Shown here piece after piece: positions 1-51,204 of a stretch of 64,000 bases of DNA. The stretch is from an archaeon (GTDB taxonomy: Archaea; Iainarchaeota; Iainarchaeia; Iainarchaeales; Iainarchaeaceae). The notes below the pieces were generated by a model. The model searched no databases, was not told the origin of the DNA, and saw only the letters and a list, made by a program, of their open reading frames with translations. A program made the translations under genes and the position numbers. Every line of letters starts with the position of its first letter. Position 1 is the stretch's first letter. The stretch covers positions 4,017 through 68,016 of the forward strand of contig JBBSVV010000003.1 in NCBI GenBank assembly GCA_038046625.1, given 5' to 3'.

Positions 1-95
1 GCCGGGGCTCTCGAACCTTTGGTTGAAATCAGCCCGCCTCTTGAAATTTGCGGGGGATGCAACCGCGAATGGTTATTCTGCGAACCAAGCAGAAT

Positions 96-167
96 GCAGC
101 TGCCGGGATTCGAACCCGGGCCAACAGCTTGGAAGGCTGTGATGCAAAACCGCTACACTACAGCTGC
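96..167 (-). tRNA. tRNA-Gly (anticodon TCC), 72 nt, no encoded CCA
   Basis: Reverse complement reads GCAGCTG-TAGTGTAGCGGTTTTGCATCA-CAGCC-TTCCAAG-CTGTT-...GGGTTCGAATCCCGG-CAGCTGC. It has a 7-bp acceptor stem, a GGTTCGAATCC T-arm and TCC in the anticodon loop. Confidence 0.8.
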
Positions 168-1049
168 TTTAAGGAAATCAGCATGGGTCGGAACTATTCC
201 CGTTTCCTTAAAAATCCTGTATTTTATTGAATGCTTAATATTGCTGGGTTTAATTAGTTTAAAAAAAGTATCCACGTGAGCCTGATCGTAGATATAAACG
301 CTTTTTCCGGATAAGCTTGCCTTAAATCCCAGTGAAACCAATGCGCACTTTACCTCATAGAGGAAATTTGGCGAACAGCTGATAAATTCGACTACCGCAC
401 TATTTTTTCTTCTTCTATGAAAACTTCCGTCAGTGTCGAATAAGCCCCTCAAATATGCTGCAAGAAGATTTCTGTCGTTGAGGATTTTCCTTTGGATAAA
501 CATCCTGTTTTTTCTGTTTCCTTTCGGAAACCCAAACTCTTCAGAAAGATATGAAACAAGCCGCTTTGAATAAACCTGGCAGCGTATTGCCCCGTTTTTA
601 ACGATAAAAGTCGGCTCCAGTCCGAATAGTTTTTCAAACTTTTTTCCAATGCTGTTTTTCACATACGCATTATCTACAATTGCTCCGCATGTAATTGATA
701 CCCTGTAATTTTTTTCGTAAATATTTCCGTCGCCTGACATGGCGCCAAGGAATTCCGCAAGCTCTTTGCCTAGTTTCGGTTTTCGGATTTCTTTTTCCCC
801 AAACTGGTCAAGTTCTATTAATTGCAATTTTTCAATTTCTTTTAAATCGAATCCTGTTTCTTTGCAGAGTGTTTTCAAATTGCTTAAAGATATCCTGCAA
901 TTTTCTTTTAAGTAGTGGAAAATCATTCTTTTTGTAACGCCGATTATATCTGCAATTTTTTGCCAGCCAAGCCCGGAGTGCTCTTTTATCTTTCTGAGAA
1001 CTGCCGCCTGATGCCAAAGGCCAGTCTGCACAAATAGTTCTTTTGCCAT
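153..1049 (-). CDS. Free-standing LAGLIDADG-type homing endonuclease-like protein with an N-terminal HTH; its 3' end overlaps the 5' end of tRNA-Gly
   Basis: Two LAGLIDADG-like motifs (LAEFLGAMSGDGNI and LAAYLRGLFDTDGSF) plus an N-terminal HTH-like segment (GWQKIADIIGVTKRMIFHYL). The last ~15 nt overlap the tRNA at 96-167. Confidence 0.6.
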   Translation of the reverse strand: MAKELFVQTGLWHQAAVLRKIKEHSGLGWQKIADIIGVTKRMIFHYLKENCRISLSNLKTLCKETGFDLKEIEKLQLIELDQFGEKEIRKPKLGKELAEFLGAMSGDGNIYEKNYRVSITCGAIVDNAYVKNSIGKKFEKLFGLEPTFIVKNGAIRCQVYSKRLVSYLSEEFGFPKGNRKNRMFIQRKILNDRNLLAAYLRGLFDTDGSFHRRRKNSAVVEFISCSPNFLYEVKCALVSLGFKASLSGKSVYIYDQAHVDTFFKLIKPSNIKHSIKYRIFKETGIVPTHADFLKAAVV

Positions 1050-1146: not shown

Positions 1147-1797
1147 ATGGGGAAAGGCATGTTCGTTGTTTTTGACGGCGTTGACGGCGCGGGAAAGGGA
1201 ACCGCAGTGAAAGGCGCTAAGAAGTTCCTTCTCTCTAAGGGGATTCCTGAATCTTGGATCGTCCATACTGCGGAGCCCACGAACGGATTTTACGGGAAAA
1301 AGGTTCGCGAGTTGCTTGTTTCTTCCCCGAAGCCTGAATTGAATGCGAAGCAGTTCCTGGATTTGTACGTTGCGGACAGGAAGGAGCATCTTGAAAAAAT
1401 TATTGAGCCGGCTTTGCGTGAGGGAAAAATCGTTTTGTGCGACCGCTTCAAGCACAGCACTTTCGTTTACCAGCATTTGCAGGGGATTCCGCTTGAAAAA
1501 ATCCGCGAACTGCATGAGGGAATGGCCACTCCTGATCTGGTTTTCATTCTGGACCTTCCGGTTGAGGTTGCGATGAAGAGGATACTGCGCAGAAAAAAGC
1601 TGGACACTTTCGAGCGGGCTGCTTTCATGGAAAAAGTGCGTGCAGGCTTCCTCAAGATGAAAGAAATTTTTCCGCGTGAGGACATAGTGTTCATTGACGC
1701 GTCGAAAAGCATTGGTGAAGTGAGGGCAAAAATAGGTTCGGTTCTTTGGAATAAAGTCAGGGAAAATGCGACCACCGGGAATCGAACCCGGCCCTGA
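1147..1797 (+). CDS. tmk: Thymidylate kinase (dTMP kinase)
   Basis: P-loop FVVFDGVDGAGKGT, DRF motif (LCDRFKHS), size ~216 aa. The ORF's 3' end runs into the minus-strand tRNA-Gly(GCC). Confidence 0.8.
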   Translation: MGKGMFVVFDGVDGAGKGTAVKGAKKFLLSKGIPESWIVHTAEPTNGFYGKKVRELLVSSPKPELNAKQFLDLYVADRKEHLEKIIEPALREGKIVLCDRFKHSTFVYQHLQGIPLEKIRELHEGMATPDLVFILDLPVEVAMKRILRRKKLDTFERAAFMEKVRAGFLKMKEIFPREDIVFIDASKSIGEVRAKIGSVLWNKVRENATTGNRTRP

Positions 1798-1837
1798 GCC
1801 TTGGCAAGGCCCAATCATACCAATAGACTATGGTCGC
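1767..1837 (-). tRNA. tRNA-Gly (anticodon GCC)
   Basis: Reverse complement reads GCGACCA-TA-GTCTATTGGTATGAT-TGGGCC-TTGCCAA-GGCTC-AGG-GCCGGGTTCGATTCCCGGT-GGTCGC-A. Canonical T-arm, GCC in the anticodon loop. Confidence 0.8.
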
Positions 1838-1842
1838 ACAAC

Positions 1843-14813: not shown

Positions 14814-15004
14814 AGCGGGATTCAAAGAAGATTGTGAAGTTCTGTTCCCGCTGCGGCTCAACGGATTTGAAGCCGCTTTATTTCATGGAAGCAATCGACA
14901 ATAGAATGCAGTGCATGGGCTGCAATGTGATTGAATTCCCTGTTGAGGGCACTGAAAAGTTTCGGAAAGAATTTTTGGAGGGAAGTAAAAATGCCGGCAA
15001 ATAA
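14810..15004 (+). CDS. Small zinc-ribbon protein
   Basis: CSRCGS...CMGCN CxxC pairs; 64 aa. Confidence 0.3.
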   Translation: MKRDSKKIVKFCSRCGSTDLKPLYFMEAIDNRMQCMGCNVIEFPVEGTEKFRKEFLEGSKNAGK

Positions 15005-18000
15005 CGAGGAAATCGGCACGGTAATAAGCAGCATGGATGGCCCTTCGCCGAGCGCATTGGATGTTGTTATTTATTCCGGAAAATTGCACCGCGGCCAGTT
15101 CGTTGAATTGGATTACAGTGAAGGAACCCTGGTTGCGCTTGTAACCGATGTAGTGAAAACAAACAGGTATTTTGAGCGCGTTGAATCCGTGAAGGAGTTC
15201 GAGCGTTCCGGCACGAAATTGTTCGAGCAGTTTCCTACTGCGGAGTGGGAATACCTTGTTGCAAAAACAAGGCCGCTTGGAGTTTATGATAAGGGCTTGA
15301 TTAAGCGCTCGACTTTTCCGCCTTCACCGGGCACAAAGGTTCGGGTTGCGGAGAAGGAAACGCTTGAAAAGTTTTTGGGCCTTGACCTTGAAAAGGGTTT
15401 GATGCTTGGGGAAATCGAGCACCACGGGGTTTTTGTGAAATTAAATCTCTCCCGCCTTTTCCAGAAGCATCTTGCGATTCTCGCAATGAGCGGCGCCGGG
15501 AAAAGCTATTTGGTTTCTGTTTTGCTCGAGGAATTGTTGGAGAGGAAGAAGGAGGATGGGCGCCTCGCTGTGATTGTGATGGACGCGCACGGCGAATACC
15601 GTTCTTTTGCCGAGCCTGTTCCCGACAAGAAGCACAGCGATTTTTCCTCAAAATCCAGGTTTGTGCGCGCCTCGGAAATCCAGATTGGTGTCCCAAAGCT
15701 TTCAATCGGTTTGCTTGCCGCGCTGATTCCTGGCCTTTCGGCGCCGCAGAAGCGTGACCTCGCAAGGGTTATTGAAAGATTGCGCAAGGAAATGAAAGAT
15801 GGCCTCGGGCCCTTTGACTTCAATGCGGTAAAGGCGGAGATTATGAAGGATTCTGAAATGAAGGAAGTAACAAAGATGTCTCTAATTGGGTGGATAATGT
15901 CCCTCGAGCAGCTTCACTTGTTTGGCAAGACTGATGCGCCCGGAATCAGCGATTTGGTGAAGCCGGGGCAGCTTACAATAATTGATTTGAGCGACGTGAT
16001 TGACCTTAAGAAGAAGCAGATTATTGTCGCGTATTATGCGCGCAAACTTTTTGATGAGAGGCGCGCAAAGCGTGTTCCTCCTTTCAGTATTGTTGTCGAG
16101 GAAGCGCATCAGTTCGCACCAGAAAGGGTTTCAAAAGAAGGTTCCATCAGCAAGCACGTGATTGAAACCATTGCCAGAGAAGGAAGGAAGTTCGGTGCGA
16201 GCATCTGTCTGATTTCGCAGAGGCCGGTTAACCTTTCAACTACGGCTTTGAGCCAGTGTGTTTCACCAGAAACTCAAGTGATTCTTTCAGACGGGCAGGA
16301 GTGTGCCATATCAGATTTCGAAAATAATTATTCCAAGACAAAATTAACAAGCTGCGATATTGAGAAAGGCAAATTGGAAGGGGCATATATTTCGCATTAT
16401 CAAAAAAATAATCCAAAGCAACAGGGGAAAAAATGCTTTGAAATAACTACTGTCGCAGGAAGACAATTAAAATGTACAGGCGACCACCCAATTTGGACAA
16501 AGGGAAAAGGATGGGTTAATGCGGCGGATTTAACTTTCAGCGATAAGGTGGCTATATTGCCGACAATTAAATCATATCCAGGGACTCCTGTTCTTGAAAT
16601 ATCTTCTGACTGCCTATCAGGTCTACTGCCTTCAACAATTAACAAGCAAAGATTGTTTGAAGAATTACAAGAAAAAGGTTTAATAGATAAAGAAATAGAA
16701 CCTCAAAAGATATTGGCTTTGGCGAGGCTCATCGGCCATATTTTTGGCGACGGTTCCCTGCATCCGCCTTACAAAAACAAACAGGGGCAGCATTCGCTGC
16801 GAATTACATTTTCAGGTTCGGAAGAAGATTTGCAGGAAATAAAAAACGATTTGGCATTTCTAGGCTTTAAGTCTGATCAAAAAATAAGCAGGCAAGTCAA
16901 AACTTCATATTCAAACTTTGTAAATTTTGGAAAAAGAAAAATTCACGGAACCTCAATATGTTTCAAAACTGGCATTGTAGGGCTTTGGGCTATTTTAAGA
17001 TTTTTGGGAGCTCCATTAGGGGATAAATCAAACACTAAAGTTTGTATGCCTAAGTGGATTTTAGATTCTCATATTTCCGTCAAAAGGGAATTCCTCTCAT
17101 CTTTGTGCGGAAGCGAATGTTCTGCGATAAGGTGGGACGGAAAATATCCTGATAGGCCTATTCTCCCATTTTCCAAGGTTGAATCGTTAAGCGGGAGCGG
17201 GCATTTGTATGCAAATAGTCTTATTTCTATGTTTCAAGATTTTGGAGTCAAGTCAAACTTATATGTAAGAGATTATGTGTGGAGAAAAGATGGCGCAAAA
17301 AGTCTGCAATTTATTATTTCGATAAATAGGTCGCGAAATAATTTGATTAATTTCTTGTCAAATGTTAACTATCGTTATGCTGTTAAAAAAAGAAGTGCGG
17401 GTTTGCATGTCTTAGAATATTTAAAATGGCTCAACATAAAACTTAATCAGAAAACAGGGCTGTTCAGCGAAGTAAATAAATCTGTCGGCGAAGTTGGTTC
17501 CAAGCAAACTTCATTGATTTATAAAATGCATAAGAAAGTTGTTGAAAACTGGGCAAGTATGGGTGTTGAAAAGTTACGACTCGCCCCGGCAGATAAAATA
17601 CCCGCTTATTCGTATTGGATAAAAGAAAAAACAGAGTCTCTTTCGGCTGGTTTAATTTGGGACGATGTAGAATATATTGAGCCCATTGTGCTTTCTGACG
17701 TAAGAGATATAACTGTTCCAAATCATCATTGTTTTTTTGCTAACGGATTTTTGACCCATAACTGCAACACCCACATTATTCTCCGTGTTACTAATCCTTA
17801 TGATTTGGACCACATCAAGCAGACCAGCGAGGGCATTGACCAAAGGACTGTTGACATGATTACTTCTCTCAGAACAGGCGAAGCCATAATTGTGGGCGAA
17901 GCCGTGAATTATCCCGTGTTTTTCAAGGTGCGCAAAAAAACCGTGCAGGATTCGCGGCACGAAAAGTCCCTCGAGGCTTCCGCTCTGGAGTTTGAGGAGA

Positions 18001-18041
18001 ACCGCGAGGAAAGGACAAAAGAACTTGATGATTTGCTGTGA
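14991..18041 (+). CDS. herA: HerA helicase (FtsK-HerA ATPase) interrupted by a 502-aa LAGLIDADG intein (nt 16257-17762)
   Basis: Walker A (AILAMSGAGKSYLV) and Walker B (IVVEEAHQFAP). The intein starts at Cys (SQ|CVSPETQVILSDG) and ends ...FLTHN|CNTHII, with LAGLIDADG blocks LIGHIFGDGSL / LSSLCGSECS. Start chosen at MPANNEEIG. Confidence 0.8.
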   Translation: MPANNEEIGTVISSMDGPSPSALDVVIYSGKLHRGQFVELDYSEGTLVALVTDVVKTNRYFERVESVKEFERSGTKLFEQFPTAEWEYLVAKTRPLGVYDKGLIKRSTFPPSPGTKVRVAEKETLEKFLGLDLEKGLMLGEIEHHGVFVKLNLSRLFQKHLAILAMSGAGKSYLVSVLLEELLERKKEDGRLAVIVMDAHGEYRSFAEPVPDKKHSDFSSKSRFVRASEIQIGVPKLSIGLLAALIPGLSAPQKRDLARVIERLRKEMKDGLGPFDFNAVKAEIMKDSEMKEVTKMSLIGWIMSLEQLHLFGKTDAPGISDLVKPGQLTIIDLSDVIDLKKKQIIVAYYARKLFDERRAKRVPPFSIVVEEAHQFAPERVSKEGSISKHVIETIAREGRKFGASICLISQRPVNLSTTALSQCVSPETQVILSDGQECAISDFENNYSKTKLTSCDIEKGKLEGAYISHYQKNNPKQQGKKCFEITTVAGRQLKCTGDHPIWTKGKGWVNAADLTFSDKVAILPTIKSYPGTPVLEISSDCLSGLLPSTINKQRLFEELQEKGLIDKEIEPQKILALARLIGHIFGDGSLHPPYKNKQGQHSLRITFSGSEEDLQEIKNDLAFLGFKSDQKISRQVKTSYSNFVNFGKRKIHGTSICFKTGIVGLWAILRFLGAPLGDKSNTKVCMPKWILDSHISVKREFLSSLCGSECSAIRWDGKYPDRPILPFSKVESLSGSGHLYANSLISMFQDFGVKSNLYVRDYVWRKDGAKSLQFIISINRSRNNLINFLSNVNYRYAVKKRSAGLHVLEYLKWLNIKLNQKTGLFSEVNKSVGEVGSKQTSLIYKMHKKVVENWASMGVEKLRLAPADKIPAYSYWIKEKTESLSAGLIWDDVEYIEPIVLSDVRDITVPNHHCFFANGFLTHNCNTHIILRVTNPYDLDHIKQTSEGIDQRTVDMITSLRTGEAIIVGEAVNYPVFFKVRKKTVQDSRHEKSLEASALEFEENREERTKELDDLL

Positions 18042-23021: not shown

Positions 23022-23103
23022 ACGCTGGCGAAAAAGAAAGAGACGGGGCATATTTTTGGCCATAGAACCTTTAATTAAGTGTTTTTCACCCATTTTTTTG
23101 CAC

Positions 23104-23140
23104 GGGCCCGTAGCTCAGCCAGGATAGCGCCCACCTCCGC
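23104..23140 (+). pseudogene. tRNA 5'-half-like fragment (acceptor + D-arm + anticodon-stem 5' strand), related to the 5' half of tRNA-Arg at 24216
   Basis: GGGCCCGTAGCTCAGCCAGGATAGCGCCCACCTCCGC aligns with GGGCTCGTCGCTA...ACGGATAAGCACCCCGCCTTCG. No matching 3' half follows. Its 3' 10 nt (CCACCTCCGC) are complementary to 23274-23283 (GCGGAGGTGG). Confidence 0.45.
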
Positions 23141-23396
23141 AATCGAATTTTTTCCTAAGACTCGGATTTTCTCGGCTTAAACCTTTGCACACTTCAACCC
23201 CTGCTTTTGGTGCAAAGGGTTTAATGCCTCCAAAACCCGCAAGACGTCTTTCGGAAAAAATTTCATCATTTAGCGGAGGTGGTCAAATGGTCGAAATTCC
23301 GATTCCAAACAAAGAAGAAATAGATTTAGCAGTAGAGGCTGAAGAGTTGACGGACAGGGAACTGTGGATTCTTAGCAAGTTTGGAGGTGATTTTGA

Positions 23397-24236
23397 ATGA
23401 ATCTCGCATCGGCAATCAGCCCTCTAAAATTGTATAATAATGCTTCAGAAGTACCTGCCATTATGGGCTTTGATTTTTCGTCAGATTTGGCCGAGGTTTG
23501 CGGCATCCATGCGGGCGACGGATACCTTCGTAATGACGGAAAAAGAAGGGAGCTAGACATCAGCGGCGGCATTGATGAAAAGGAATATTATGATTCGCAT
23601 GTCGTGCCTCTTTTTGAACGAGTTTTTGGAATAAATATTACTCCAAAATTTTTTCCAAAACGTCATACTTACGGTTTTGTAATTCGCGACAGAAACATTG
23701 TTGAGTTTATGCACTCGCTTGGGTTTCCTTATGGGGCAAAAACTTTCACAGTTTCAGTTCCTGAATTTGTTTCCAATTCCAAAAATTTGGATATACTATA
23801 TAGTTTCATTAGGGGCGCTTTTGACACAGATGGTTGCCTAGCTTTTCAAAAGAAAGTGGGAAGCGGCTATAAAAGTGAAGTAAAGAGGAAGCACTCCTTT
23901 CCTGTAGTTCAGATAAGTATCTGCTCTAAACCATTTTGTGATGGGCTGTGTTCACTTTTCAGGAAAACCGGTTTTAACTGCAAAGTTGTCATGCAGAAAC
24001 CTACTTATGACTATCAACACGTGAAATATGCCTTGTATTTGAGGGGTTATTCTAATCTTAAAAGTTGGATGCGCAACATTGGGTTCAAAAATACTTCAAA
24101 ACTATCGCGCTATGAGGTTTGGGAGAAATTCGGTTTTTGTCCTACTAACATTTCTTTTGAGCAGAGAAAACAAATATTAAATAATGAACTTGACCCCAAT
24201 TCCTTCTATAAGCATGGGCTCGTCGCTAACGGATAA
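23397..24236 (+). CDS. Free-standing LAGLIDADG-type homing endonuclease-like protein; its 3' end overlaps the 5' end of tRNA-Arg
   Basis: Motifs LAEVCGIHAGDGYL and LYSFIRGAFDTDGCL. The stop codon (24234-24236) lies 20 nt inside the tRNA. Confidence 0.6.
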   Translation: MNLASAISPLKLYNNASEVPAIMGFDFSSDLAEVCGIHAGDGYLRNDGKRRELDISGGIDEKEYYDSHVVPLFERVFGINITPKFFPKRHTYGFVIRDRNIVEFMHSLGFPYGAKTFTVSVPEFVSNSKNLDILYSFIRGAFDTDGCLAFQKKVGSGYKSEVKRKHSFPVVQISICSKPFCDGLCSLFRKTGFNCKVVMQKPTYDYQHVKYALYLRGYSNLKSWMRNIGFKNTSKLSRYEVWEKFGFCPTNISFEQRKQILNNELDPNSFYKHGLVANG

Positions 24237-24286
24237 GCACCCCGCCTTCGAAGCGGGCGATGAGGGTTCGAATCCCTCCGAGCCCG
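24216..24286 (+). tRNA. tRNA-Arg (anticodon TCG)
   Basis: GGGCTCG-TC-GCTAACGGATAAGC-A-CCCGC-CTTCGAA-GCGGG-CGAT-GAGGGTTCGAATCCCTC-CGAGCCC-G. Perfect acceptor, anticodon and T stems. The D-arm is short (3 bp). Confidence 0.7.
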
Positions 24287-24461
24287 CTGCACTTTCACGC
24301 AGAATCCTTGATTCTGCTGAAACCTGCACTAAAAAGAAAGAGTGCCGGAAAAAGAAAAGACCCCTGTTTCTGGCTCGGCAAGCCGTGCTTGGCCGGTTTC
24401 AATGTGGCCAGGGCTCGCTTTCTTTTAGGCAAGGAATTAATACTCGCAAGTAGTTGTATTT

Positions 24462-25003: not shown

Positions 25004-26392
25004 TCAGTAATCCAAAAATTCTTCTTTTCCTTTCAAGTACGCAGTAAGGAACTGCTGGAAACCCTTGTTCTTTTTGTAAAGCGCGGCGATTTCCTTTTCG
25101 CTCATTATTTTCGCGTTTTTTCCGAGTGCTTTTCCCATCGCTTCTTTCTCGGCCCCCCTGAGTTTTTTCAGGAGCTGCGAAAGGAATGCCTTGAGTTCCG
25201 TGTGTTTGCGCTGCACTTCGATTATCCAGCGCCCTTTCTCTATGCGCGGCCCCGCGAGCATTTGTTTGTGTGCGGAGAGGAACGCTTCGGAATTTTTTTC
25301 GTCGAACGCTTCAGGCCCGATTTTTACTTCTGCTTTCTGGAGCTCCGTTGATTCCACCTCGAATAGAATAACCATTTGCTTTTCCTTTTCCAGCCACTCG
25401 GAACTTCGCTTCACTTGGAACCCCCCGAGTTCGGAGAATGTCCTGATTTTGTGCGAGAATCTCCTCAATTGCCCCCACATGATGTCCTCAATAACCCCTT
25501 TCGGATAGGATAGCGAGATTGCAATTAGCTCGGTTTTTTTCAGGAATTGCTTTAGTTTTGCCTGGCTCCATGCAGAGTGTTTTTTCGGGAAGAAAAAATT
25601 GATTGAGGGCTTTTTCATGAATGCTCTTGATGCCGCTATGAAGCGTGCGTACTGGTTTAATGAAAGTGCCGCGGCAACATTCCTGTTCCTGTCCACTGGA
25701 TCAACCACTGTAAAATGCCAGCCGAATTTTTTTTGGGCATCCCCTTTCGCATAATAGTTTTCGATGTCAATTGCTTCGCCATTTTTCCAGTGCGCCGCCG
25801 CTTCAAGTGCTTTTGCGAATGACCCGTATTTCAGCACAAGCAGTTCAGCAACGTAACCCGGGAAGCTGTTCGAGCTCAAATCGGCTCCGTAGCACTTTAT
25901 TCCTTTCATGAATTGCTTCAGCAGGCGCGCCTCTCCTCTATGGCGCTCCTCCATTTTTTTTACCAGGTAATTGTTGTGCAATACGCTTCTGTCTACTGCG
26001 CTCTGCATCAGCGATGAATCGGCAATGTTGTATGATGGCACAATTTCCACCCTGAAGCCGTTTATTTCTCCGCGTATGTAGGGGTGTTCTGAATATGCCT
26101 TTTCCCACGTGTGCCCCCTGAAAACGGCTTTTCCTATGCGCAGGCCTTCTTCCTCGAATTCTTTGCGCGGAAGCTCTTTCGGGTAGAGGACAAATATGTC
26201 AAGGTCCCGGTCATTCCTCAAATGCGTATTGCGTGCAATGCTGCCGACAATTTCGACTTTTTCGTGGCTGCCCTTCATTGCCATTATTTGTGCCGCGATT
26301 TTTTGGGCCAGTTTTTTTTCTTTTGCCAGTTCCTGCTTTGCAGGGGTGATTTTTTTGAGGGTTTTGGCAAGAATCTGCTGCAACGGAATCAC
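25004..26392 (-). CDS. cca: CCA-adding tRNA nucleotidyltransferase, archaeal class I
   Basis: GSIARNTHLRNDRDLDIFV is the class I (archaeal) nucleotidyltransferase motif; ~460 aa. Confidence 0.75.
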   Translation of the reverse strand: MIPLQQILAKTLKKITPAKQELAKEKKLAQKIAAQIMAMKGSHEKVEIVGSIARNTHLRNDRDLDIFVLYPKELPRKEFEEEGLRIGKAVFRGHTWEKAYSEHPYIRGEINGFRVEIVPSYNIADSSLMQSAVDRSVLHNNYLVKKMEERHRGEARLLKQFMKGIKCYGADLSSNSFPGYVAELLVLKYGSFAKALEAAAHWKNGEAIDIENYYAKGDAQKKFGWHFTVVDPVDRNRNVAAALSLNQYARFIAASRAFMKKPSINFFFPKKHSAWSQAKLKQFLKKTELIAISLSYPKGVIEDIMWGQLRRFSHKIRTFSELGGFQVKRSSEWLEKEKQMVILFEVESTELQKAEVKIGPEAFDEKNSEAFLSAHKQMLAGPRIEKGRWIIEVQRKHTELKAFLSQLLKKLRGAEKEAMGKALGKNAKIMSEKEIAALYKKNKGFQQFLTAYLKGKEEFLDY

Positions 26393-46813: not shown

Positions 46814-47968
46814 TCATCCCACCTTCGGTTGGGTTATTTTTAAGTAGAACACGAGGAACCCAAGCACAAGCGGCATTGCAACCAAATAAATTGCCGCTAT
46901 TGCTATCGGGGACAATGCAACGCTTCCCACGGAAATCGGTGCATTGGTTATGGAGCCTATTATTCCGATGAAAACCGGCACCACTATTGCGGCGAAAATG
47001 TATATTACTCCGAAGAAGTTCATTTTTTCCGAGAACTCGCGGACCGCAATGCGCATGTCGAAGCTCACGTCCTCGGCAATTGTGTTCATTATGTCCGAGA
47101 GGTTTCCCCCGGTTTTCATTGCGCGTATTATGTGCAGGAGCGCGTTGCGCAGCGCCTTTGACTGTGTCCTTAAAGCGAAGTGCCTTAGCGCGTCTTTCGT
47201 GTCCGTTCCTTCCTCGACCTCGTTTATTGTGCGCGCGAATTCTTCGCTCAGCACGCCGTAATCTGAGGTCGCTATTGTCTGCAGTGTTTTGTAGAGGCCT
47301 ATTCCGGACTTTAATTCGGTCGCCATGTGCCTCAATGCGAAGGGCAGCTCCACGCTCATGGCGTCGCCCCTTCTTTGTGCGTTGCTTTTCGGTACGAGCA
47401 TCAGCGCTACAAGCGCGAACATTCCCACTGCGCCGGAAATGAGGATTGAGTAAAGCAGGTTCACCTTGTACACGAAGCTCAGTGCGGCAATGATTGCAAA
47501 TGAAAATATTCCCGCAAGCGTTGCGGCCGCAAGGGAAAGCGCGAGCCATTGCTGGAGCGAGTACTTCATGTTTGCGGAGTAAAGGTAATACCGCACATCA
47601 TTCGCGAGCGGCAATTTTTTTATGAGGCGTGAAACCGGGTCAAGCGGCAGCCTGAGCATCAGGTAAAGTTTTCCAAGGCTCTTTATCGCAGGGCTCTGGA
47701 ATTCCTGCAAATCTTCAACGGTCTGGACGTTTATTTTTGCCTGTTCGCCCTCGGCAATTATTCCCCTCAGCTCCCCAAGCTTTCCCCCGACTTCCTCGAA
47801 TTCAATGCCCTGTTCACGGTACTTTTTTTTCATGCGGTCGACTATTTTTTCTACCTTGTCCATGTCCACGGTTTCCTGCGCGTCCTTTCCCGCAGTCGTC
47901 TGCTTTTTTTCTTCCTTTTTTTCCTCGATTTTTTTTCTCAGGTCGCTCAAAGTGCTCATGGTGTTCAC
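46814..47968 (-). CDS. FlaJ/TadC/PilC-like membrane platform protein, copy 2
   Basis: Same architecture as 45732-46688; 384 aa. Confidence 0.6.
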   Translation of the reverse strand: MNTMSTLSDLRKKIEEKKEEKKQTTAGKDAQETVDMDKVEKIVDRMKKKYREQGIEFEEVGGKLGELRGIIAEGEQAKINVQTVEDLQEFQSPAIKSLGKLYLMLRLPLDPVSRLIKKLPLANDVRYYLYSANMKYSLQQWLALSLAAATLAGIFSFAIIAALSFVYKVNLLYSILISGAVGMFALVALMLVPKSNAQRRGDAMSVELPFALRHMATELKSGIGLYKTLQTIATSDYGVLSEEFARTINEVEEGTDTKDALRHFALRTQSKALRNALLHIIRAMKTGGNLSDIMNTIAEDVSFDMRIAVREFSEKMNFFGVIYIFAAIVVPVFIGIIGSITNAPISVGSVALSPIAIAAIYLVAMPLVLGFLVFYLKITQPKVG

Positions 47969-50900
47969 TTTTTTTTCATTGAGTACTGCTTTACCGCTTC
48001 GGAGATTTCTTTCATGCTTCTCCTGTTTTCCTTCACGAGCTTTTCGAGGTATGCCGCCCTGTCCTTGACCTCGTCATCAAAGTCCTTTTTGGACATTCCC
48101 GCGAGTTCCTGGAGTTTTTGGGCGTAATTTATCTGGGCTTTTGTCCTTTTTAGGGAGTCTGTTACCGGGTCGCGCAGGTATACGGCTTCGGTTTTCGGCT
48201 TGCCTTCAAGGGCGCCGGTCACTTGGGCAATTTCGGTTATTCTCCTTATTGTCCCCATTTTCCTGTCGTGCAGCCTGTGCTGTACAACTATTATGTCGAG
48301 CCCGGAAAGCATTACTTGCGGCACGTTCATCGGCGGGTTTGTCACCCTCACGATTGTTTCCTGTGCCGAGTTTGCGTGCACTGTTCCGAGTGAATTTCCC
48401 ACGATTATTCCCTGTGCCACGAAATTATGGGGGTTCCTGCCGGTTTGCCTTTCTTCGCTTACCGTCAGGTCATATACAAATCCGTTGTATGGGTATGAGT
48501 GTATGGCAATTACCTTATCCCAGAAAATGTCGGATTCCGCGAGCAGCTTAAGCTTTGAGGATTCAATTCCCGCAGATTCAAATGCCTTGGCGAGTGCCCC
48601 GACTGCACGCCTGCTCGGCGTCCTTTCCCTTCTTTTGTAAAAACTTATTGCTCCTTGTGTTAATCCTGCCATTCTCGCAATTTCAGAATTGCTGTACCCC
48701 TTTTCTTTTTTTGCCGTTTTGAGCAGTTTTATTATGGTGCCGTTGCATTCTATGGTGTCGGTATTCGTGTTGCTTTCTTTTCCCCTGCCGAGCAGTTCCT
48801 CTATTTTCCTTATTTTTTCGGGGAATTTTACCGGGTAGGTTTTGTAGAATTTTTCCACTTGGTCTATTCCATAAATATAGAGCCTGTACCATCTGCTGTT
48901 GTGTGCGCGTGACTCGTATTTTCTGGAGGTTATCCCTTCCGTCAATAATGCATAGCGGAAAAAATCTATGTAGTGCTCGTTTGCGCATGAAATGACGATT
49001 GCATTGTTGTTTGCATCAACATGCCCTTCTGCGTCAAAAAAGCCCGCGACAAACCCGCGCAGGGAGTTCGTGTAGTGTGAATTGGACATTTTTGCTTTCT
49101 GCCTGCTTCCCGCGGGGATGTCAAGCATTTCCATAATCTTTGCGGTTTTCTTGAACCCGCTTATGTGCGCTTCATAGCATTGCTTTTGCGGGCGCGGGTT
49201 CACTATTTTCACGTGTGTCCCATCGAGGTTTTCTTTCATGTAATTTATGAATTTCGGGATTATGGTTTCCTCTTCTGTGTAGAGGTTTATTGAGCCTTCA
49301 TTGCACAGGTATTGCTTGCCGTTTTTTTTCCTTTGCCTTTTGTAATAGGTTATGTTTCCGTCACCGTGCAGCAGGCCACTCCAGTATTCGCTCTCGGTTT
49401 CTTTTGCGTTTTCTTCCCTGAGCAGCTTTCTCGGGGTTGCAATGTTTTGCCCTTCCTTGAGAGTGTCCGCCCTTGCCTGTTGAATGTTGTCCGCAAGAGT
49501 ATAGAATGGGTGGTTTCCCGTGCAGGTTAGTTCGCTGCCGGAAGCAAGCTTTATGTGGTAAACGTTGCCTGTGAAAGGCCTGCGCCTTGCCTGCACGATT
49601 TTTTGCCTGTTCACTTTCCCTTTGCCGTCCACAGAGTTGATGTGCTCATCGCCCACAGTGCACACTTCCCACTCTCCTTCTTTCCGGCTGCCGTTTTTCT
49701 GCAGTTGCTCTTCCGTGAATTGGCCGATTTCGCGTATTCCCGAAGTCAGCGCTATTTTTGCTTCGCCCGTAAGGCAACCGTCATGCCCCGTGTTGAATGC
49801 CGTGAACAATGAGAACGCCTCATCATGCCTGATTTCGCCGACAATTATCCTGTCAGGGCGCATTCTCAGGGAATTTTTCGTGAGTATGTCAAGCGTTACC
49901 TCTCCGGTTCCTTCAAGCCCAGGCGGCCTTGCTTCCATCCTTATCCAGTGCTTCAAGGGAAGGTTCAGTTCGGCCGTGTCCTCAATGGAAATTATCCTTT
50001 CTGTTTCCGGTATGAATGTTGCGAGCACGTTCAGCGTTGTGGTTTTTCCGGAGCCGGTTCCGCCTGAAATCAGTATGTTTGCGGGTTTCGTGCCCAAGCC
50101 ATCGGTGCATGCCCACAGGAATGCGGCGGTTTCCGCTTCAATGGTTTTGTTTTTTATGAGGTCTATTATTGTGTAAGGGTCTTCGCGGAACTTTCTTATT
50201 GTCAATGTGGAGCCCTGCACCGAAGCGGGGGGAATTGTTGCGTTGACCCTGCTTCCATCAGGGAGTCTCGCATCAAGGAGCGGGCTGCTGATGTCCACCC
50301 TTCTTCCTATTTGCCTTGCAATCCTGTTCACGAGATCCTGTATTTCATTGTCGTTGTAGAACTCGATGTTCGTTATCATCATTCCGTATTTCCTGTGGAA
50401 AATGTAAACCGGCCTGTTCGGCGCGATGACCATTATTTCCTCGAGCTTGTCATCGTGAATCAGGTCGTCTATTATTCCGTACCCTATCATTTCCCGTATT
50501 ACCGTGTTCGCATAAAAATCAAACCGCGTTTTTGGTATGTTGAGTTCCGGGGAGTCGCGGAGAATCTCAAGCACTTTCTGGTAGTAAACGTTCTTTCTCT
50601 GCTCCGGGTCGCGGATCTTGTAAGGCGTAATGCTGATTACCCTTGTCGCGGCCTCCTTGATGGTGTTGATTATTGTTTTTTCCGCCCCCACAGGCCTTGG
50701 CACGGGTATCCAGTAGTAAAGCAGGGGCTGTCCCGGGAGCTCGTAAATTTTGGCGTTTCCATAGGAATCAATGAGCTTTTTTTCGGATGTTTCCAGTTCC
50801 CTTTCCGCGGTGGATTTTTGTTCCTCGGGAACGCTTTCCGGGTTTTGCGGCGCGTTGATATTTTCCTGTGGCGGGAGCGTGCTCTTTATTTCCGCTATTT

Positions 50901-51204
50901 TCTGCTTGGCCAGCATCACTTCTTTGGCGGCTTTCTTCTCTTCATCTTCCTTGTCCTCGCTTTGCGCCTTTTCAGGTTCTTCGCTGCGCATCTGCTCAAG
51001 TATAAGGTTTTTTTTGCCCGGCAATGGCTTCGGTTCCGTGTGCCATGGCTTTTTCCCCTGGGCTTGTTGAATCTGTGCGGGATTTTTTTTTGCGGGCTCG
51101 GGCTTCACGGCTTTTTTTTGCGCGGCGTCTTCCGGCTTTCCGGGTTGTTTTGCGTCTTTTTTTGCCTTTGCCTTTTCAAATAGCGCGTCGAGATAATCTG
51201 GCAT
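47965..51204 (-). CDS. FlaI/PilB/VirB11-like secretion ATPase with a K/E/P-rich N-terminal extension, interrupted by a 461-aa LAGLIDADG intein (nt 48394-49776)
   Basis: Walker A ISGGTGSGKTTTLNVL. The His box is split FNTGHDG|CLTGEAKIAL...GIIVGN|SLGTVHANS. Intein endonuclease blocks LLHGDGNI and FVAGFFDAEGHV. Confidence 0.8.
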   Translation of the reverse strand: MPDYLDALFEKAKAKKDAKQPGKPEDAAQKKAVKPEPAKKNPAQIQQAQGKKPWHTEPKPLPGKKNLILEQMRSEEPEKAQSEDKEDEEKKAAKEVMLAKQKIAEIKSTLPPQENINAPQNPESVPEEQKSTAERELETSEKKLIDSYGNAKIYELPGQPLLYYWIPVPRPVGAEKTIINTIKEAATRVISITPYKIRDPEQRKNVYYQKVLEILRDSPELNIPKTRFDFYANTVIREMIGYGIIDDLIHDDKLEEIMVIAPNRPVYIFHRKYGMMITNIEFYNDNEIQDLVNRIARQIGRRVDISSPLLDARLPDGSRVNATIPPASVQGSTLTIRKFREDPYTIIDLIKNKTIEAETAAFLWACTDGLGTKPANILISGGTGSGKTTTLNVLATFIPETERIISIEDTAELNLPLKHWIRMEARPPGLEGTGEVTLDILTKNSLRMRPDRIIVGEIRHDEAFSLFTAFNTGHDGCLTGEAKIALTSGIREIGQFTEEQLQKNGSRKEGEWEVCTVGDEHINSVDGKGKVNRQKIVQARRRPFTGNVYHIKLASGSELTCTGNHPFYTLADNIQQARADTLKEGQNIATPRKLLREENAKETESEYWSGLLHGDGNITYYKRQRKKNGKQYLCNEGSINLYTEEETIIPKFINYMKENLDGTHVKIVNPRPQKQCYEAHISGFKKTAKIMEMLDIPAGSRQKAKMSNSHYTNSLRGFVAGFFDAEGHVDANNNAIVISCANEHYIDFFRYALLTEGITSRKYESRAHNSRWYRLYIYGIDQVEKFYKTYPVKFPEKIRKIEELLGRGKESNTNTDTIECNGTIIKLLKTAKKEKGYSNSEIARMAGLTQGAISFYKRRERTPSRRAVGALAKAFESAGIESSKLKLLAESDIFWDKVIAIHSYPYNGFVYDLTVSEERQTGRNPHNFVAQGIIVGNSLGTVHANSAQETIVRVTNPPMNVPQVMLSGLDIIVVQHRLHDRKMGTIRRITEIAQVTGALEGKPKTEAVYLRDPVTDSLKRTKAQINYAQKLQELAGMSKKDFDDEVKDRAAYLEKLVKENRRSMKEISEAVKQYSMKKK

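What the first reader, a model, noticed from the sequence alone, without database searches (positions are those of the whole stretch)
96..1049. Second instance of the same architecture: a LAGLIDADG endonuclease ORF ending ~15 nt inside the 5' end of a tRNA (tRNA-Gly-TCC)
On the minus strand the 298-aa LAGLIDADG protein (HTH + two LAGLIDADG blocks) runs directly into tRNA-Gly(TCC) (153-167 overlap). This is exactly the arrangement at 23397-24236 / tRNA-Arg. Two independent tRNA genes each immediately preceded by a free-standing double-motif LAGLIDADG gene is unlikely by chance. It suggests these endonucleases target or home to tRNA gene 5' regions, or are expressed and processed with the tRNA. 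Positions 1-95 (window edge) contain a degenerate T-arm-like GGTTCGAGAGCC on the minus strand; this could be a second remnant but is truncated by the window.
Basis: partly seen in the sequence, partly recalled or inferred. Interest (0 to 1): 0.65.

Follow-up and report, generated by a model that had tools for sequence, protein, structure and literature searches.

The report
Homing endonuclease genes embedded at tRNA genes
Two related DNA-cutting "selfish" genes in this small archaeon each sit directly against a tRNA gene, and hundreds of relatives do the same, apparently because the element inserts into the tRNA gene and repairs the damage by bringing its own promoter and a spare copy of the gene's first ~25 bases.

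Summary
ORF 153..1049(-) is a 298-aa HTH plus double-motif LAGLIDADG protein that ends 15 nt inside tRNA-Gly(UCC). ORF 23397..24236(+) is a 279-aa relative (26% identity) that ends 21 nt inside tRNA-Arg(UCG).

This is not chance:
- 67 of 80 genomic loci encoding relatives of protein 1 carry a tRNA at the ORF's 3' end, against 23 of 400 control windows.
- At least 54 of 57 loci of protein 2's family carry tRNA-Arg(UCG).
- Endonuclease clades track tRNA identity: Gly, Arg, Gln and Val in DPANN archaea, Ser in CPR bacteria.

A TATA-like box lies inside the last ~15 codons, so the overlap is a by-product of having no spacer.

Upstream of many of these genes, same-strand only, lies a leftover tRNA 5' fragment (nt 1 to ~25) with its own TATA box. 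The window has one at 23104-23130.

Best reading: a homing-endonuclease element inserted in the tRNA D-arm region that restores the gene by replacing its 5' end and promoter. Mitochondrial mobile ORFs replace gene 3' ends in the mirror-image way, and an unexplained insertion in Caldiarchaeum tRNA-Thr has the same layout.

Cleavage and homing are inferred, not shown. I rate it a new variant of a known kind.

The parts
153..1049 (-). Endonuclease gene 1: 298-aa protein with an N-terminal XRE-like HTH and a monomeric double-motif LAGLIDADG core. The catalytic Asp residues are D107 and D207.
   Evidence: ORF. Pfam. D107 and D207 are invariant in 30 homologs. AF2 pLDDT 93 with Foldseek hits to I-DmoI, I-Tsp061I and PI-PfuI.
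95..167 (-). tRNA-Gly(UCC), intact and intron-less. Its first 15 nt are the last 4 codons plus the stop of gene 1.
   Evidence: ARAGORN. Rfam 64.2 bits. Sequence.
206..217 (-). TATA-like box ggatttttaagg inside the codons R-I-F-K-E of gene 1, at -50..-39 from tRNA-Gly +1. Putative tRNA promoter; inferred from the motif only.
   Evidence: The same motif sits at the same distance in L001 and L005. Woese- and Nanoarchaeota relatives have a TATA box at -37..-24.
23397..24236 (+). Endonuclease gene 2: 279-aa double-motif LAGLIDADG protein with motifs LAEVCGIHAGDG and LYSFIRGAFDTDG.
   Evidence: The family has >363 homologs at 45-72% identity. G40-D41-G42 and D143-x-D145-G146 are invariant.
24216..24287 (+). 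tRNA-Arg(UCG), intact. Its first 21 nt are the last 6 codons plus the stop of gene 2.
   Evidence: ARAGORN. Rfam 52.7 bits. Sequence.
24174..24185 (+). TATA-like box atattaaataat, the codons I-L-N-N of gene 2, at -42..-31 from tRNA-Arg +1. Putative tRNA promoter inside the ORF.
   Evidence: A WTWTTAAA octamer starts at -29..-42 in 37 of 49 distinct family-2 loci.
23104..23130 (+). tRNA-Arg-like 5' fragment GGGCCCGTAGCTCAGCCAGGATAGCGC (acceptor strand plus D-arm). Interpreted as the displaced native 5' end of the tRNA gene. Decayed in relative L171.
   Evidence: Sequence. nhmmer against a tRNA 5'-half HMM gives E=0.33, weak on its own. The best-matching tRNA type is Arg-tcg. It sits in the same position as clearer remnants in L109, L119, L125, L136, L152 and L155. 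Not found by ARAGORN or Rfam.
23068..23079 (+). TATA-like box cctttaattaag about 30 nt upstream of the 5' fragment. Presumed original tRNA promoter; conserved in L171.
23131..23286 (+). Conserved structured leader RNA between the tRNA fragment and the small ORF. Its outer helix CCACCUCCGC/GCGGAGGUGG sequesters the Shine-Dalgarno sequence.
   Evidence: About 95% nt identity to L171, whose protein is only 72% identical. Homologous leaders in 9 further loci. RNAalifold finds 44 pairs, 15 of them with compensatory changes. Fold z=-3.7. No Rfam family.
23287..23400 (+). Small ORF of 37 aa (MVEIPIPNKEE...). Its stop overlaps the ATG of gene 2 (ATGA). Homologous small ORFs precede gene 2 relatives.
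   Evidence: (36-aa gene called in L171 and L173).

Best explanation
Both ORFs are LAGLIDADG homing-endonuclease genes of a large lineage whose genomic niche is the tRNA gene. The lineage occurs in DPANN archaea and has a branch in CPR bacteria.

Proposed mechanism:
1. The enzyme recognises its cognate, uninterrupted tRNA gene and cuts in the D-arm to anticodon-stem region, around nt 20-27. This step is inferred.
2. Repair copies the element in. The element is [own promoter/leader + endonuclease ORF + tRNA promoter embedded in the last ~15 codons + a replacement copy of tRNA nt 1 to ~25].
3. The insertion therefore rebuilds a complete, independently transcribed tRNA gene immediately after the ORF. 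The native promoter and 5' fragment are displaced upstream, where they decay or are re-used.

Both homology arms for homing lie within the tRNA gene itself: the 5' fragment on the left and the rest of the tRNA on the right. The element thus behaves like an intron that is neutralised by gene-end replacement rather than by splicing.

The ORF-tRNA overlap is a by-product of the zero-length spacer. The ORF reads on to the first in-frame stop, usually UAG at tRNA positions 8-10 or 13-15.

In this window both insertions look old and vertically inherited. The Arg copy still shows its displaced fragment at 23104-23130. The Gly copy no longer does.

Shown: the association, the clade-to-tRNA specificity, the remnants, the promoter-like motifs, and the intact catalytic residues and fold. 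Inferred: cleavage, the cut site, homing, and how the rebuilt gene escapes re-cleavage.
For: Nuclease identity:
- Pfam LAGLIDADG_3.
- Catalytic Asp residues invariant in both families.
- AF2 model and Foldseek hits to archaeal homing endonucleases.

Association with tRNA genes:
- Family 1: 67/80 loci against 23/400 control windows, p~1e-69.
- Family 2: 52/57 loci by intron-tolerant detection, plus L099 and L155 by ARAGORN, nearly all with a UCG anticodon loop.
- C-termini of >100 homologs are tRNA-encoded, for example ...FY+GPVA(QLG).

Specificity: the NJ tree clades correspond to tRNA identity, namely Arg-UCG, Gly, Val-UAC, Gln and bacterial Ser.

Promoter: a TATA-like octamer starts at -29..-42 in 37/49 family-2 loci and at -24..-50 in family 1.

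Remnants:
- Upstream regions match the locus's own tRNA 5' end, up to 20/20 nt, preceded by TATA boxes.
- A generic 5'-half HMM gives 21 hits at E<=1 on the endonuclease strand, 0 on the opposite strand, and 5 hits (2 at E<=1) in ORF-internal controls.
- Remnant type matches the linked tRNA, and the distance to the ORF start is fixed within each clade.
- In L125 the 5' and 3' remnants have complementary acceptor strands, so they come from one split resident tRNA.
- L013 shows the mirror layout, with a displaced 3' remnant.

Mobility signals:
- Empty sites exist: L013 tRNA-Gly(UCC) and L052 tRNA-Arg(UCG).
- Within syntenic Iainarchaeia loci the gene sits at different tRNA-Gly borders.
- Truncated or frameshifted-looking copies occur in L039, L140, L159, L161 and L163.
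- The family is distributed across archaea and CPR bacteria.

Precedents: mitochondrial mobile ORFs that carry replacement gene 3' ends (PMC3630166), and the Caldiarchaeum tRNA-Thr 5' fragment + 1.9-kb insertion + rebuilt tRNA (PMC3293823).
Against: - No biochemical or population evidence of cleavage or homing.
- In this organism all 9 contigs carrying the identical neighbouring tmk gene also carry gene 1.
- Synteny with relatives at 65-72% identity is conserved, and the endonucleases diverge at about the rate of neighbouring housekeeping genes. That fits long vertical inheritance under purifying selection, which is unusual for a purely selfish element.
- Gene 1 in the window has no detectable 5' remnant. 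The remnant of gene 2 is statistically weak on its own (E=0.33).
- Only about 20% of loci show a recognisable remnant, and none were seen in the CPR Ser clade.
- The rebuilt tRNA re-creates the presumed target, so immunity is unexplained. Possible answers are sequence divergence or the non-canonical intron at the same position in some relatives; both are speculation.
- The TATA boxes are motif matches in AT-rich DNA and coincide with conserved residues (I-L-N/K), so dual coding is not proven.
Confidence: 0.65

Rival explanations
1. Domesticated LAGLIDADG proteins. Once-mobile endonucleases are now kept by the host for a function tied to the neighbouring tRNA gene, such as a sequence-specific DNA-binding regulator or a guardian of that locus. 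They are inherited vertically and no longer home.
For: - Strong conservation: family 2 is 45-72% identical across DPANN classes.
- 254 clusters at E<=1e-30.
- Conserved synteny, with divergence similar to neighbouring genes.
- No presence/absence variation among near-identical contigs.
- An N-terminal HTH in family 1 and WhiA among the structural neighbours.
- An elaborate conserved leader that sequesters the SD.
Against: - Both catalytic Asp residues are invariant. Known domesticated LAGLIDADG proteins such as WhiA and the maturases have lost them (established knowledge).
- Empty sites, alternative positions and degenerate copies exist.
- Displaced tRNA fragments record insertion events in several clades.
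- The same architecture is spread over archaea and bacteria.
Confidence: 0.2
2. Expression coupling. The ORF and the tRNA form one transcript, and RNase P processing of the tRNA defines or regulates the endonuclease mRNA. The overlap is the functional feature.
For: - No spacer and no terminator between ORF and tRNA.
- The stop codon lies inside the tRNA in the window and in many relatives.
- RNase P subunit Rpr2 and the CCA-adding enzyme are nearby, which may be coincidence.
Against: - The overlap is not conserved. Many relatives stop just before the tRNA or before its TATA box.
- A TATA-like box for the tRNA lies inside the ORF end.
- Convergent and tRNA-upstream arrangements exist.
- RNase P cleavage would leave a non-stop mRNA.
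Confidence: 0.05
3. Intron-encoded endonuclease. The ORF lies in a large BHB or group I intron of the tRNA, with the upstream fragment as exon 1.
For: - tRNA 5' fragments lie upstream of the ORFs.
- Archaeal rRNA BHB introns and cyanobacterial tRNA group I introns are known to carry LAGLIDADG genes (PMC13011429, and established knowledge).
- A structured RNA follows the fragment in family 2.
Against: - The downstream tRNA is complete, with its own paired 5' acceptor strand, so no splicing is needed.
- No group I or group II intron model matches in the window.
- The upstream fragments have diverged from, and often cannot pair with, the 3' acceptor strand of the functional gene (L005, L119 and the window).
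Confidence: 0.04
4. Chance adjacency, or generic clustering of mobile DNA at tRNA genes (for example by integrases), with no specific link between endonuclease and tRNA.
For: tRNA genes are known integration hot spots (established knowledge; discussed in PMC3293823).
Against: - p~1e-69 for adjacency.
- Clade-specific tRNA identity.
- A nucleotide-precise junction across hundreds of genomes.
- No integrase in the ~1-kb units.
Confidence: 0.01

Closest known systems
Mobile endonuclease ORFs (mORFs) of fungal mitochondria that carry a replacement gene end (Allomyces atp6; Glomus atp6, atp9, cox2, nad3)
   Same: A LAGLIDADG or GIY-YIG endonuclease gene is inserted in a host gene. The element supplies a foreign copy of the displaced gene end, so the gene stays functional. 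The native end remains as a diverged duplicate next to the element (PMC3630166).
   Different: In mitochondria the 3' end of a protein-coding gene is replaced, in organelles. Here the 5' end and the promoter of a tRNA gene are replaced, in free-living-cell genomes of DPANN archaea (a mirror 3' version is seen in L013). The tRNA promoter appears to be coded inside the endonuclease ORF.
Caldiarchaeum subterraneum tRNA-Thr(GGU) locus heterogeneity (Sugahara et al. 2012)
   Same: A 5' tRNA fragment (nt 1-27), then a 1,868-bp insertion containing an 813-bp ORF, then a complete tRNA with a new intron at 24/25. The paralogous ORFs include one next to another tRNA-Thr (PMC3293823). The breakpoint and the intron coincidence match those seen here in L020, L025, L010 and L040.
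   Different: The ORF there was only predicted as 'DNA-binding/recombination', and the element was attributed to a pNOB8-like plasmid or transposon. No endonuclease family was recognised. Whether that ORF is a LAGLIDADG protein could not be tested here.
Archaeal intron- and intein-encoded LAGLIDADG endonucleases (I-DmoI, I-Tsp061I, PI-PfuI, VMA inteins)
   Same: Same fold and catalytic motifs, and these are the closest structural and sequence matches. Each lineage is tied to one conserved target site.
   Different: Those sit inside spliced introns or inteins. These genes are free-standing, lie outside the mature tRNA, and have no splicing element. Family 1 adds an N-terminal HTH.
Free-standing phage endonucleases in tRNA gene clusters (T4 SegB)
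   Same: A free-standing homing endonuclease whose target and inherited region is a tRNA gene region (PMC2330249).
   Different: SegB belongs to the GIY-YIG family, occurs in phage, lies between tRNA genes, and drives marker exclusion during co-infection. There is no gene-end replacement.
LAGLIDADG genes in rRNA insertion sequences and tRNA group I introns of CPR bacteria and cyanobacteria
   Same: The same ultra-small-cell lineages are rich in LAGLIDADG elements that target structural RNA genes (PMC11270868 and PMC13011429).
   Different: Those lie inside rRNA genes or inside self-splicing tRNA introns. The tRNA-flanking arrangement is not mentioned in either paper.

Membership tests
LAGLIDADG homing endonuclease (monomeric, two-motif) | Two LAGLIDADG motifs, each ending in a conserved acidic residue | tested here: met
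   D107 and D207 (family 1) and D41 and D145 (family 2) are invariant. Pfam PF14528 E=1.5e-10 for protein 1. Protein 2 is below Pfam thresholds but homologous to protein 1, and many of its homologs carry PF14528.
LAGLIDADG homing endonuclease (monomeric, two-motif) | Tandem alpha-beta-beta-alpha-beta-beta-alpha fold | tested here: met
   AF2 pLDDT 93.1. Foldseek hits to I-DmoI, I-Tsp061I, PI-PfuI and VMA intein endonuclease domains, E 1e-10 to 1e-6. Protein 1 only.
LAGLIDADG homing endonuclease (monomeric, two-motif) | Site-specific cleavage of a ~20-bp target leaving 4-nt 3' overhangs | not testable with these tools
   Requires biochemistry.
LAGLIDADG homing endonuclease (monomeric, two-motif) | Mobility: occupied and empty alleles of the same site, degenerate copies, horizontal spread | tested here: inconclusive
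   Empty sites exist in L013 and L052. Alternative positions occur in syntenic loci. Truncated copies exist. The family is spread across domains. However, no polymorphism was found within this organism's population and synteny with close relatives is vertical.
Gene-end-replacement mobile ORF (mORF-type element) | Endonuclease ORF inserted in a host gene, with a duplicated host-gene end: one functional copy and one displaced copy | tested here: met
   Met in relatives: (21 same-strand against 0 opposite-strand hits at E<=1), L125 and L013. In the window, a candidate is present for gene 2 (23104-23130, weak) and none is detected for gene 1.
Gene-end-replacement mobile ORF (mORF-type element) | The displaced and functional copies differ, which indicates a foreign origin for the element-borne end | tested here: met
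   L005, L119, L136, L109 and the window all have remnants that differ from the functional 5' end. Several could not pair with the functional 3' acceptor strand.
BHB-intron- or group I-intron-encoded endonuclease | The ORF lies between two exons that only together make the RNA gene, and a splicing structure is present | tested here: not met
   The downstream tRNA is complete. No intron ribozyme family was detected.
WhiA-like LAGLIDADG transcription factor | Degenerate LAGLIDADG domains lacking the catalytic acidic residues, plus a C-terminal HTH | tested here: not met
   The catalytic Asp residues are retained and invariant. The HTH is N-terminal and present in family 1 only. The WhiA Pfam match is below threshold (17.8 against 23.2 bits).
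Integrase-borne tRNA-targeting integrative element | A tyrosine or serine recombinase, with att repeats overlapping the tRNA 3' end | tested here: not met
   The units are ~1-1.3 kb and contain only the endonuclease, sometimes with a small ORF or leader. No recombinase is among the neighbours. The duplicated part is the tRNA 5' end.

The most novel reading that the evidence does not exclude
Endonuclease-driven end-replacement insertion may be a general, still-active generator of disrupted tRNA genes in archaea. It would leave promoter-bearing tRNA 5' fragments. It would also install non-canonical introns at the insertion point (about nt 24-27), and these introns would double as immunity against re-cleavage. 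Together these could seed split tRNA genes. On this reading the unexplained Caldiarchaeum tRNA-Thr insertion is a member of the same class. By carrying the tRNA's only promoter inside its own ORF, the element would also make itself hard to delete, a form of addiction.
Probability: 0.3. Interest if true: 0.88.

Novelty: new variant of a known kind. Interest (0 to 1): 0.78.

Why it matters
If correct, this is a third way for a homing endonuclease to be harmless to its host gene. Introns and inteins splice the insertion out. This element instead rebuilds the gene by bringing a promoter and a spare 5' end.

It is applied to tRNA genes in the smallest known cells, in both DPANN archaea and CPR bacteria. 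A profile search finds 254 protein clusters (50% identity representatives) at E<=1e-30 and 1,667 at E<=1e-10.

It gives a concrete enzyme and a concrete sequence signature to a long-standing question: how archaeal tRNA genes acquire odd-position introns, fragments and split halves. So far that question has rested on one unexplained locus in Caldiarchaeum.

It also offers a set of natural meganucleases with tRNA-gene specificities. In addition, it explains a recurrent annotation oddity, namely ORFs that end inside tRNAs.

Tried and rejected
1. ARAGORN, Rfam and a 3'-half HMM found nothing, and the stretch is not conserved in L001. Rejected.

2. A 5' remnant upstream of gene 1. Local alignment is no better than shuffles. 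Not detected.

3. Empty-site alleles in the same population.
   - All contigs carrying the identical tmk gene also carry gene 1.
   - An exact-pattern scan of JGI metagenomes for the 3' part of tRNA-Gly found 0 matches.

4. 3' remnants downstream of the functional tRNAs as a general feature. Only L105 and L125 have them; the rest are at control level. The whole-tRNA-cassette model was therefore rejected as the general case.

5. Remnants in the CPR tRNA-Ser clade. None seen.

6. An Rfam identity for the conserved leader and for the 540-nt spacer after tRNA-Gly. No match.

7. Literature searches for LAGLIDADG genes next to archaeal tRNA genes found no description.

8. Testing whether Caldiarchaeum ORF 'b' is a LAGLIDADG protein.

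9. ARAGORN alone under-calls the linked tRNAs because many have one or two introns. I added an intron-tolerant acceptor and T-arm detector with a control.
Full report
**1. The observation**

On the minus strand, ORF 153..1049 encodes 298 aa. tRNA-Gly(UCC) occupies 95..167 (ARAGORN; Rfam 64.2 bits). The last four codons and the stop (GCA GCT GTA GTG TAG) are tRNA positions 1-15.

The protein has three recognisable features:
- An XRE-like HTH at residues ~18-72, below the Pfam thresholds.
- Two LAGLIDADG motifs; Pfam gives LAGLIDADG_3 at E=1.5e-10.
- A predicted structure with pLDDT 93 whose best matches are archaeal homing endonucleases: VMA intein endonuclease domains, PI-PfuI, I-Tsp061I and I-DmoI, followed by WhiA.

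The second case is equally real. ORF 23397..24236(+) encodes 279 aa and runs 21 nt into tRNA-Arg(UCG) at 24216..24287. The two proteins are 26% identical over 234 residues, E=5e-14.

The organism is a DPANN archaeon of the Iainarchaeia/Diapherotrites group, judged from the identical NCBI MAG proteins and the closest relatives.

**2. The adjacency is not chance, and the overlap is not the point**

*Family 1.* I fetched 80 genomic loci that encode relatives of protein 1. They come from DPANN archaea and also from CPR and other bacteria.
- Standard ARAGORN finds a tRNA at the ORF's 3' end in 42 of them.
- Most of the rest have tRNAs with one or two introns that ARAGORN misses.
- With an intron-tolerant detector, 67/80 loci have a tRNA there. 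Control windows in the same loci give 23/400, p~1e-69.
- By eye, about nine more loci have a tRNA.

*Family 2.* It has more than 363 homologs at 45-72% identity.
- Their C-termini mostly read ...NPxxFY followed by GPVA, GPVAQLG, KGP or GLVA. These residues are a tRNA 5' end translated in frame.
- In 80 metagenomic loci, 57 were evaluable (counting the window). Of these, 52 have a tRNA-like gene starting -23..+31 nt from that motif, or +112..145 nt in one long-tailed subclade.
- L099 and L155 are added by ARAGORN.
- Almost all carry the UCG anticodon loop.

*Clade structure.* A neighbour-joining tree groups the proteins by the identity of the linked tRNA:
- Arg-UCG
- Gly, with one co-oriented UCC subclade and one convergent GCC/CCC/UCC subclade
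- Val-UAC
- Gln
- bacterial Ser

*The overlap.* The length of the ORF-tRNA overlap varies among 0, 10-11 and 15-16 nt, or the ORF stops just before the tRNA or before its TATA box. The ORF simply ends at the first in-frame stop. tRNAs supply one at UAG 8-10 or 13-15.

**3. A promoter inside the ORF**

In family 2 a WTWTTAAA octamer, coded by the conserved residues I-L-N/K, begins 29-42 nt before tRNA +1 in 37 of 49 distinct loci. The window's copy is atattaaataat at 24174-24185.

In family 1 a comparable box lies at -24..-37 in Woese- and Nanoarchaeota, often just after the stop codon. In the window, L001 and L005 it lies at about -39..-50, within the codons I-F-K-E.

This geometry fits archaeal TATA-to-start spacing with a short tRNA leader (established knowledge). 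It remains a motif inference.

It argues that the tRNA is transcribed on its own. Together with the convergent subclade and the tRNA-upstream pair L063/L067, it argues against obligatory co-transcription and RNase P coupling.

**4. Displaced tRNA fragments**

I searched the ~300-450 nt upstream of each endonuclease gene.

*Search with the locus's own tRNA 5' end.* This gave strong matches in several clades, up to 20/20 nt, each preceded by its own TATA box:

| Linked tRNA | Loci with a remnant |
|---|---|
| Arg | L109, L119, L125, L136, L152 |
| Val | L040 |
| Gly | L020, L026, L007 |
| Gln | L033, L042, L044 |

*Search with a generic tRNA 5'-half HMM (155 regions).*
- 37 hits in total, 21 of them at E<=1.
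- All 21 are on the endonuclease strand; none are on the opposite strand at E<=1.
- ORF-internal controls give 5 hits (2 at E<=1).
- The fragment type matches the linked tRNA.
- The distance to the ORF start is fixed within each clade: about 25-38 nt for Gly, 14-27 for Gln, 63-68 for Val, and 130-170 for an Arg subclade.

*Properties of the fragments.*
- They run from nt 1 to about nt 20-29.
- They often differ from the functional 5' end and could not pair with its 3' acceptor strand (L005, L119, L136).
- In L125, a 5' and a 3' remnant with mutually complementary acceptor strands bracket the unit. A resident tRNA was therefore split by the insertion.
- In L013, a member of the convergent subclade, the layout is mirrored. 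The functional tRNA is followed by the antisense endonuclease gene and then a displaced 3' remnant with its T-run.
- In several Gly and Val loci the functional copy carries a non-canonical intron exactly where the remnant ends (L020, L025, L016, L010, L004, L040).

**5. The window in this light**

*Gene 2.* Upstream of gene 2 the order of features is:
1. A TATA-like box at 23068-23079.
2. GGGCCCGTAGCTCAGCCAGGATAGCGC at 23104-23130, an acceptor strand plus D-arm of Arg type.
3. A T-run.
4. A ~150-nt leader.
5. A 37-aa ORF (23287..23400) whose stop overlaps the start of gene 2.

The fragment is statistically weak on its own (E=0.33). It is decayed in the 72%-identical relative L171, while the promoter box is kept.

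*Gene 1.* It shows no remnant.

*Synteny.*

| Locus | Gene order | Shared with |
|---|---|---|
| Gene 1 | Val, transglutaminase-like gene, Gly-GCC, tmk, gene 1, Gly-UCC, DUF7523, Rpr2 | L001 and L002 |
| Gene 2 | Rad50, EF-1beta, aS21, small ORF, gene 2, Arg, CCA-adding enzyme | L171-L173 |

The endonucleases diverge at about the rate of their neighbours. These two insertions are therefore old and vertically inherited here.

*Other Iainarchaeia.* They carry the gene on the other side of tmk against tRNA-Gly(GCC/CCC), or on the downstream side of tRNA-Gly(UCC). Empty sites also exist: L013 Gly-UCC and L052 Arg-UCG.

**6. Mechanism**

The best-supported model is a homing-endonuclease element that inserts into its cognate tRNA gene around nt 20-27. 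It neutralises the damage by carrying a promoter and a replacement 5' exon at the 3' end of its ORF.

The displaced native promoter and fragment stay upstream. They can serve as the left homology arm in later homing events. The tRNA body serves as the right arm.

| Status | Steps |
|---|---|
| Shown | Nuclease fold and invariant catalytic residues; statistical association; clade-to-tRNA specificity; remnants; promoter-like motifs; empty sites and degenerate copies |
| Inferred | Cleavage; cut position; homing; immunity of the rebuilt gene |

Main counter-evidence:
- Conservation is high and inheritance is vertical here.
- The remnant evidence inside the window itself is absent for gene 1 and weak for gene 2.
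- Remnants are recognisable in only about a fifth of loci.

I give this model 0.65. Domestication gets 0.2 and the other readings share the rest.

**7. Comparison with what is known**

*Closest in function.* The fungal mitochondrial mobile ORFs carry a foreign replacement of a gene's 3' end and leave the native end as a duplicate (PMC3630166). The present case is the mirror image, replacing the 5' end and the promoter, and it acts on tRNA genes of cellular genomes.

*Closest in locus.* The Caldiarchaeum tRNA-Thr(GGU) polymorphism consists of a 5' fragment (nt 1-27), an insertion of 1,868 bp with an 813-bp ORF of unknown type, and a rebuilt tRNA with a new intron at 24/25 (PMC3293823). The authors proposed a plasmid or transposon origin and did not identify an endonuclease. 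I could not obtain that ORF to test it.

*Related in spirit but different in architecture.*
- T4 SegB (PMC2330249).
- CPR rRNA insertion-sequence endonucleases (PMC11270868).
- tRNA group I introns (PMC13011429).

*Literature search.* Six full-text searches found no description of LAGLIDADG genes flanking archaeal tRNA genes. That library is incomplete, so prior description elsewhere cannot be excluded.

**8. Verdict**

- Observation: confirmed.
- First interpretation (tRNA-targeting): supported, but the insertion point is refined to inside the tRNA.
- Second interpretation (co-processing): not supported.
- Edge remnant at 1-95: not supported.
- Novelty: new variant of a known kind.
- Family size: 254 clusters at E<=1e-30 and 1,667 at E<=1e-10 in a 1.84-billion-protein library.
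- Wider relevance: the finding bears directly on how archaeal tRNA genes become fragmented.
- Interest: 0.78.

Noticed in passing
window 23131-23286 (+): A ~150-nt conserved structured leader precedes the small ORF and endonuclease gene 2. It forms a long multi-helix hairpin whose outer helix pairs CCACCUCCGC with the Shine-Dalgarno GCGGAGGUGG. It is about 95% identical to L171 even though the proteins are only 72% identical. Homologous leaders occur in 9 other loci. RNAalifold finds 15 of 44 pairs with compensatory changes. There is no Rfam match. It may be a translational gate on the endonuclease.
   Followed up: partly
window 23287-23400 (+): A 37-aa ORF (MVEIPIPNKEEIDLAVEAEELTDRELWILSKFGGDFE) whose stop overlaps the start of gene 2 (ATGA). 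Similar small ORFs (..P.P...EI..A....PE.L.DRE.W) precede family-2 genes in relatives. Function unknown.
   Followed up: partly
window 1-94 and beyond (L081 6956-7495): A 540-nt stretch after tRNA-Gly(UCC) has no called gene and no Rfam match. It is not conserved with L001, apart from a short island GCTGGCGACCAGAAAA.
   Followed up: partly
window 47965-51204 (-) and 14931-18041 (+): Weak LAGLIDADG-like tblastn matches lie inside two very long ORFs (48841-49383, E=0.058; 16626-16874, E=0.12). The second coincides with a low-GC stretch at 16-18 kb. These may be inteins with endonuclease domains.
   Followed up: no
L119, L125, L136, L152 (between the tRNA-Arg remnant and the endonuclease start): In one Arg subclade, a small conserved ORF on the opposite strand (starting MNYPE...) lies between the displaced tRNA fragment and the endonuclease gene. 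The element may therefore carry a second gene.
   Followed up: no
window 1159-1797 (+) and 1766-1838 (-): The 3' end of the thymidylate kinase gene overlaps tRNA-Gly(GCC) on the opposite strand by about 30 nt. This is another sign of extreme gene packing around these tRNAs.
   Followed up: no
L081 8245-8547; window 25004-26392 (-): RNase P protein subunit Rpr2 lies 1.3 kb downstream of the Gly locus. The CCA-adding enzyme lies next to the Arg locus. Both linkages are conserved in relatives. This may be coincidence.
   Followed up: no
L042 (DAOTCN010000002.1) and L071: A contig labelled Paceibacterota (bacterial) carries an archaeal-type tRNA-Gln with an intron, and its endonuclease clusters with Pacearchaeota (L033). 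This looks like a binning or label error. Separately, a CPR tRNA-Tyr-linked copy falls among the archaeal Gln-linked ones in the NJ tree.
   Followed up: no
L063 2820-2930 and L067: tRNA-Gln has an intron after about nt 9-10. It lies upstream of the endonuclease gene on the same strand, and there is no tRNA downstream. This is a third arrangement besides co-oriented-downstream and convergent.
   Followed up: partly
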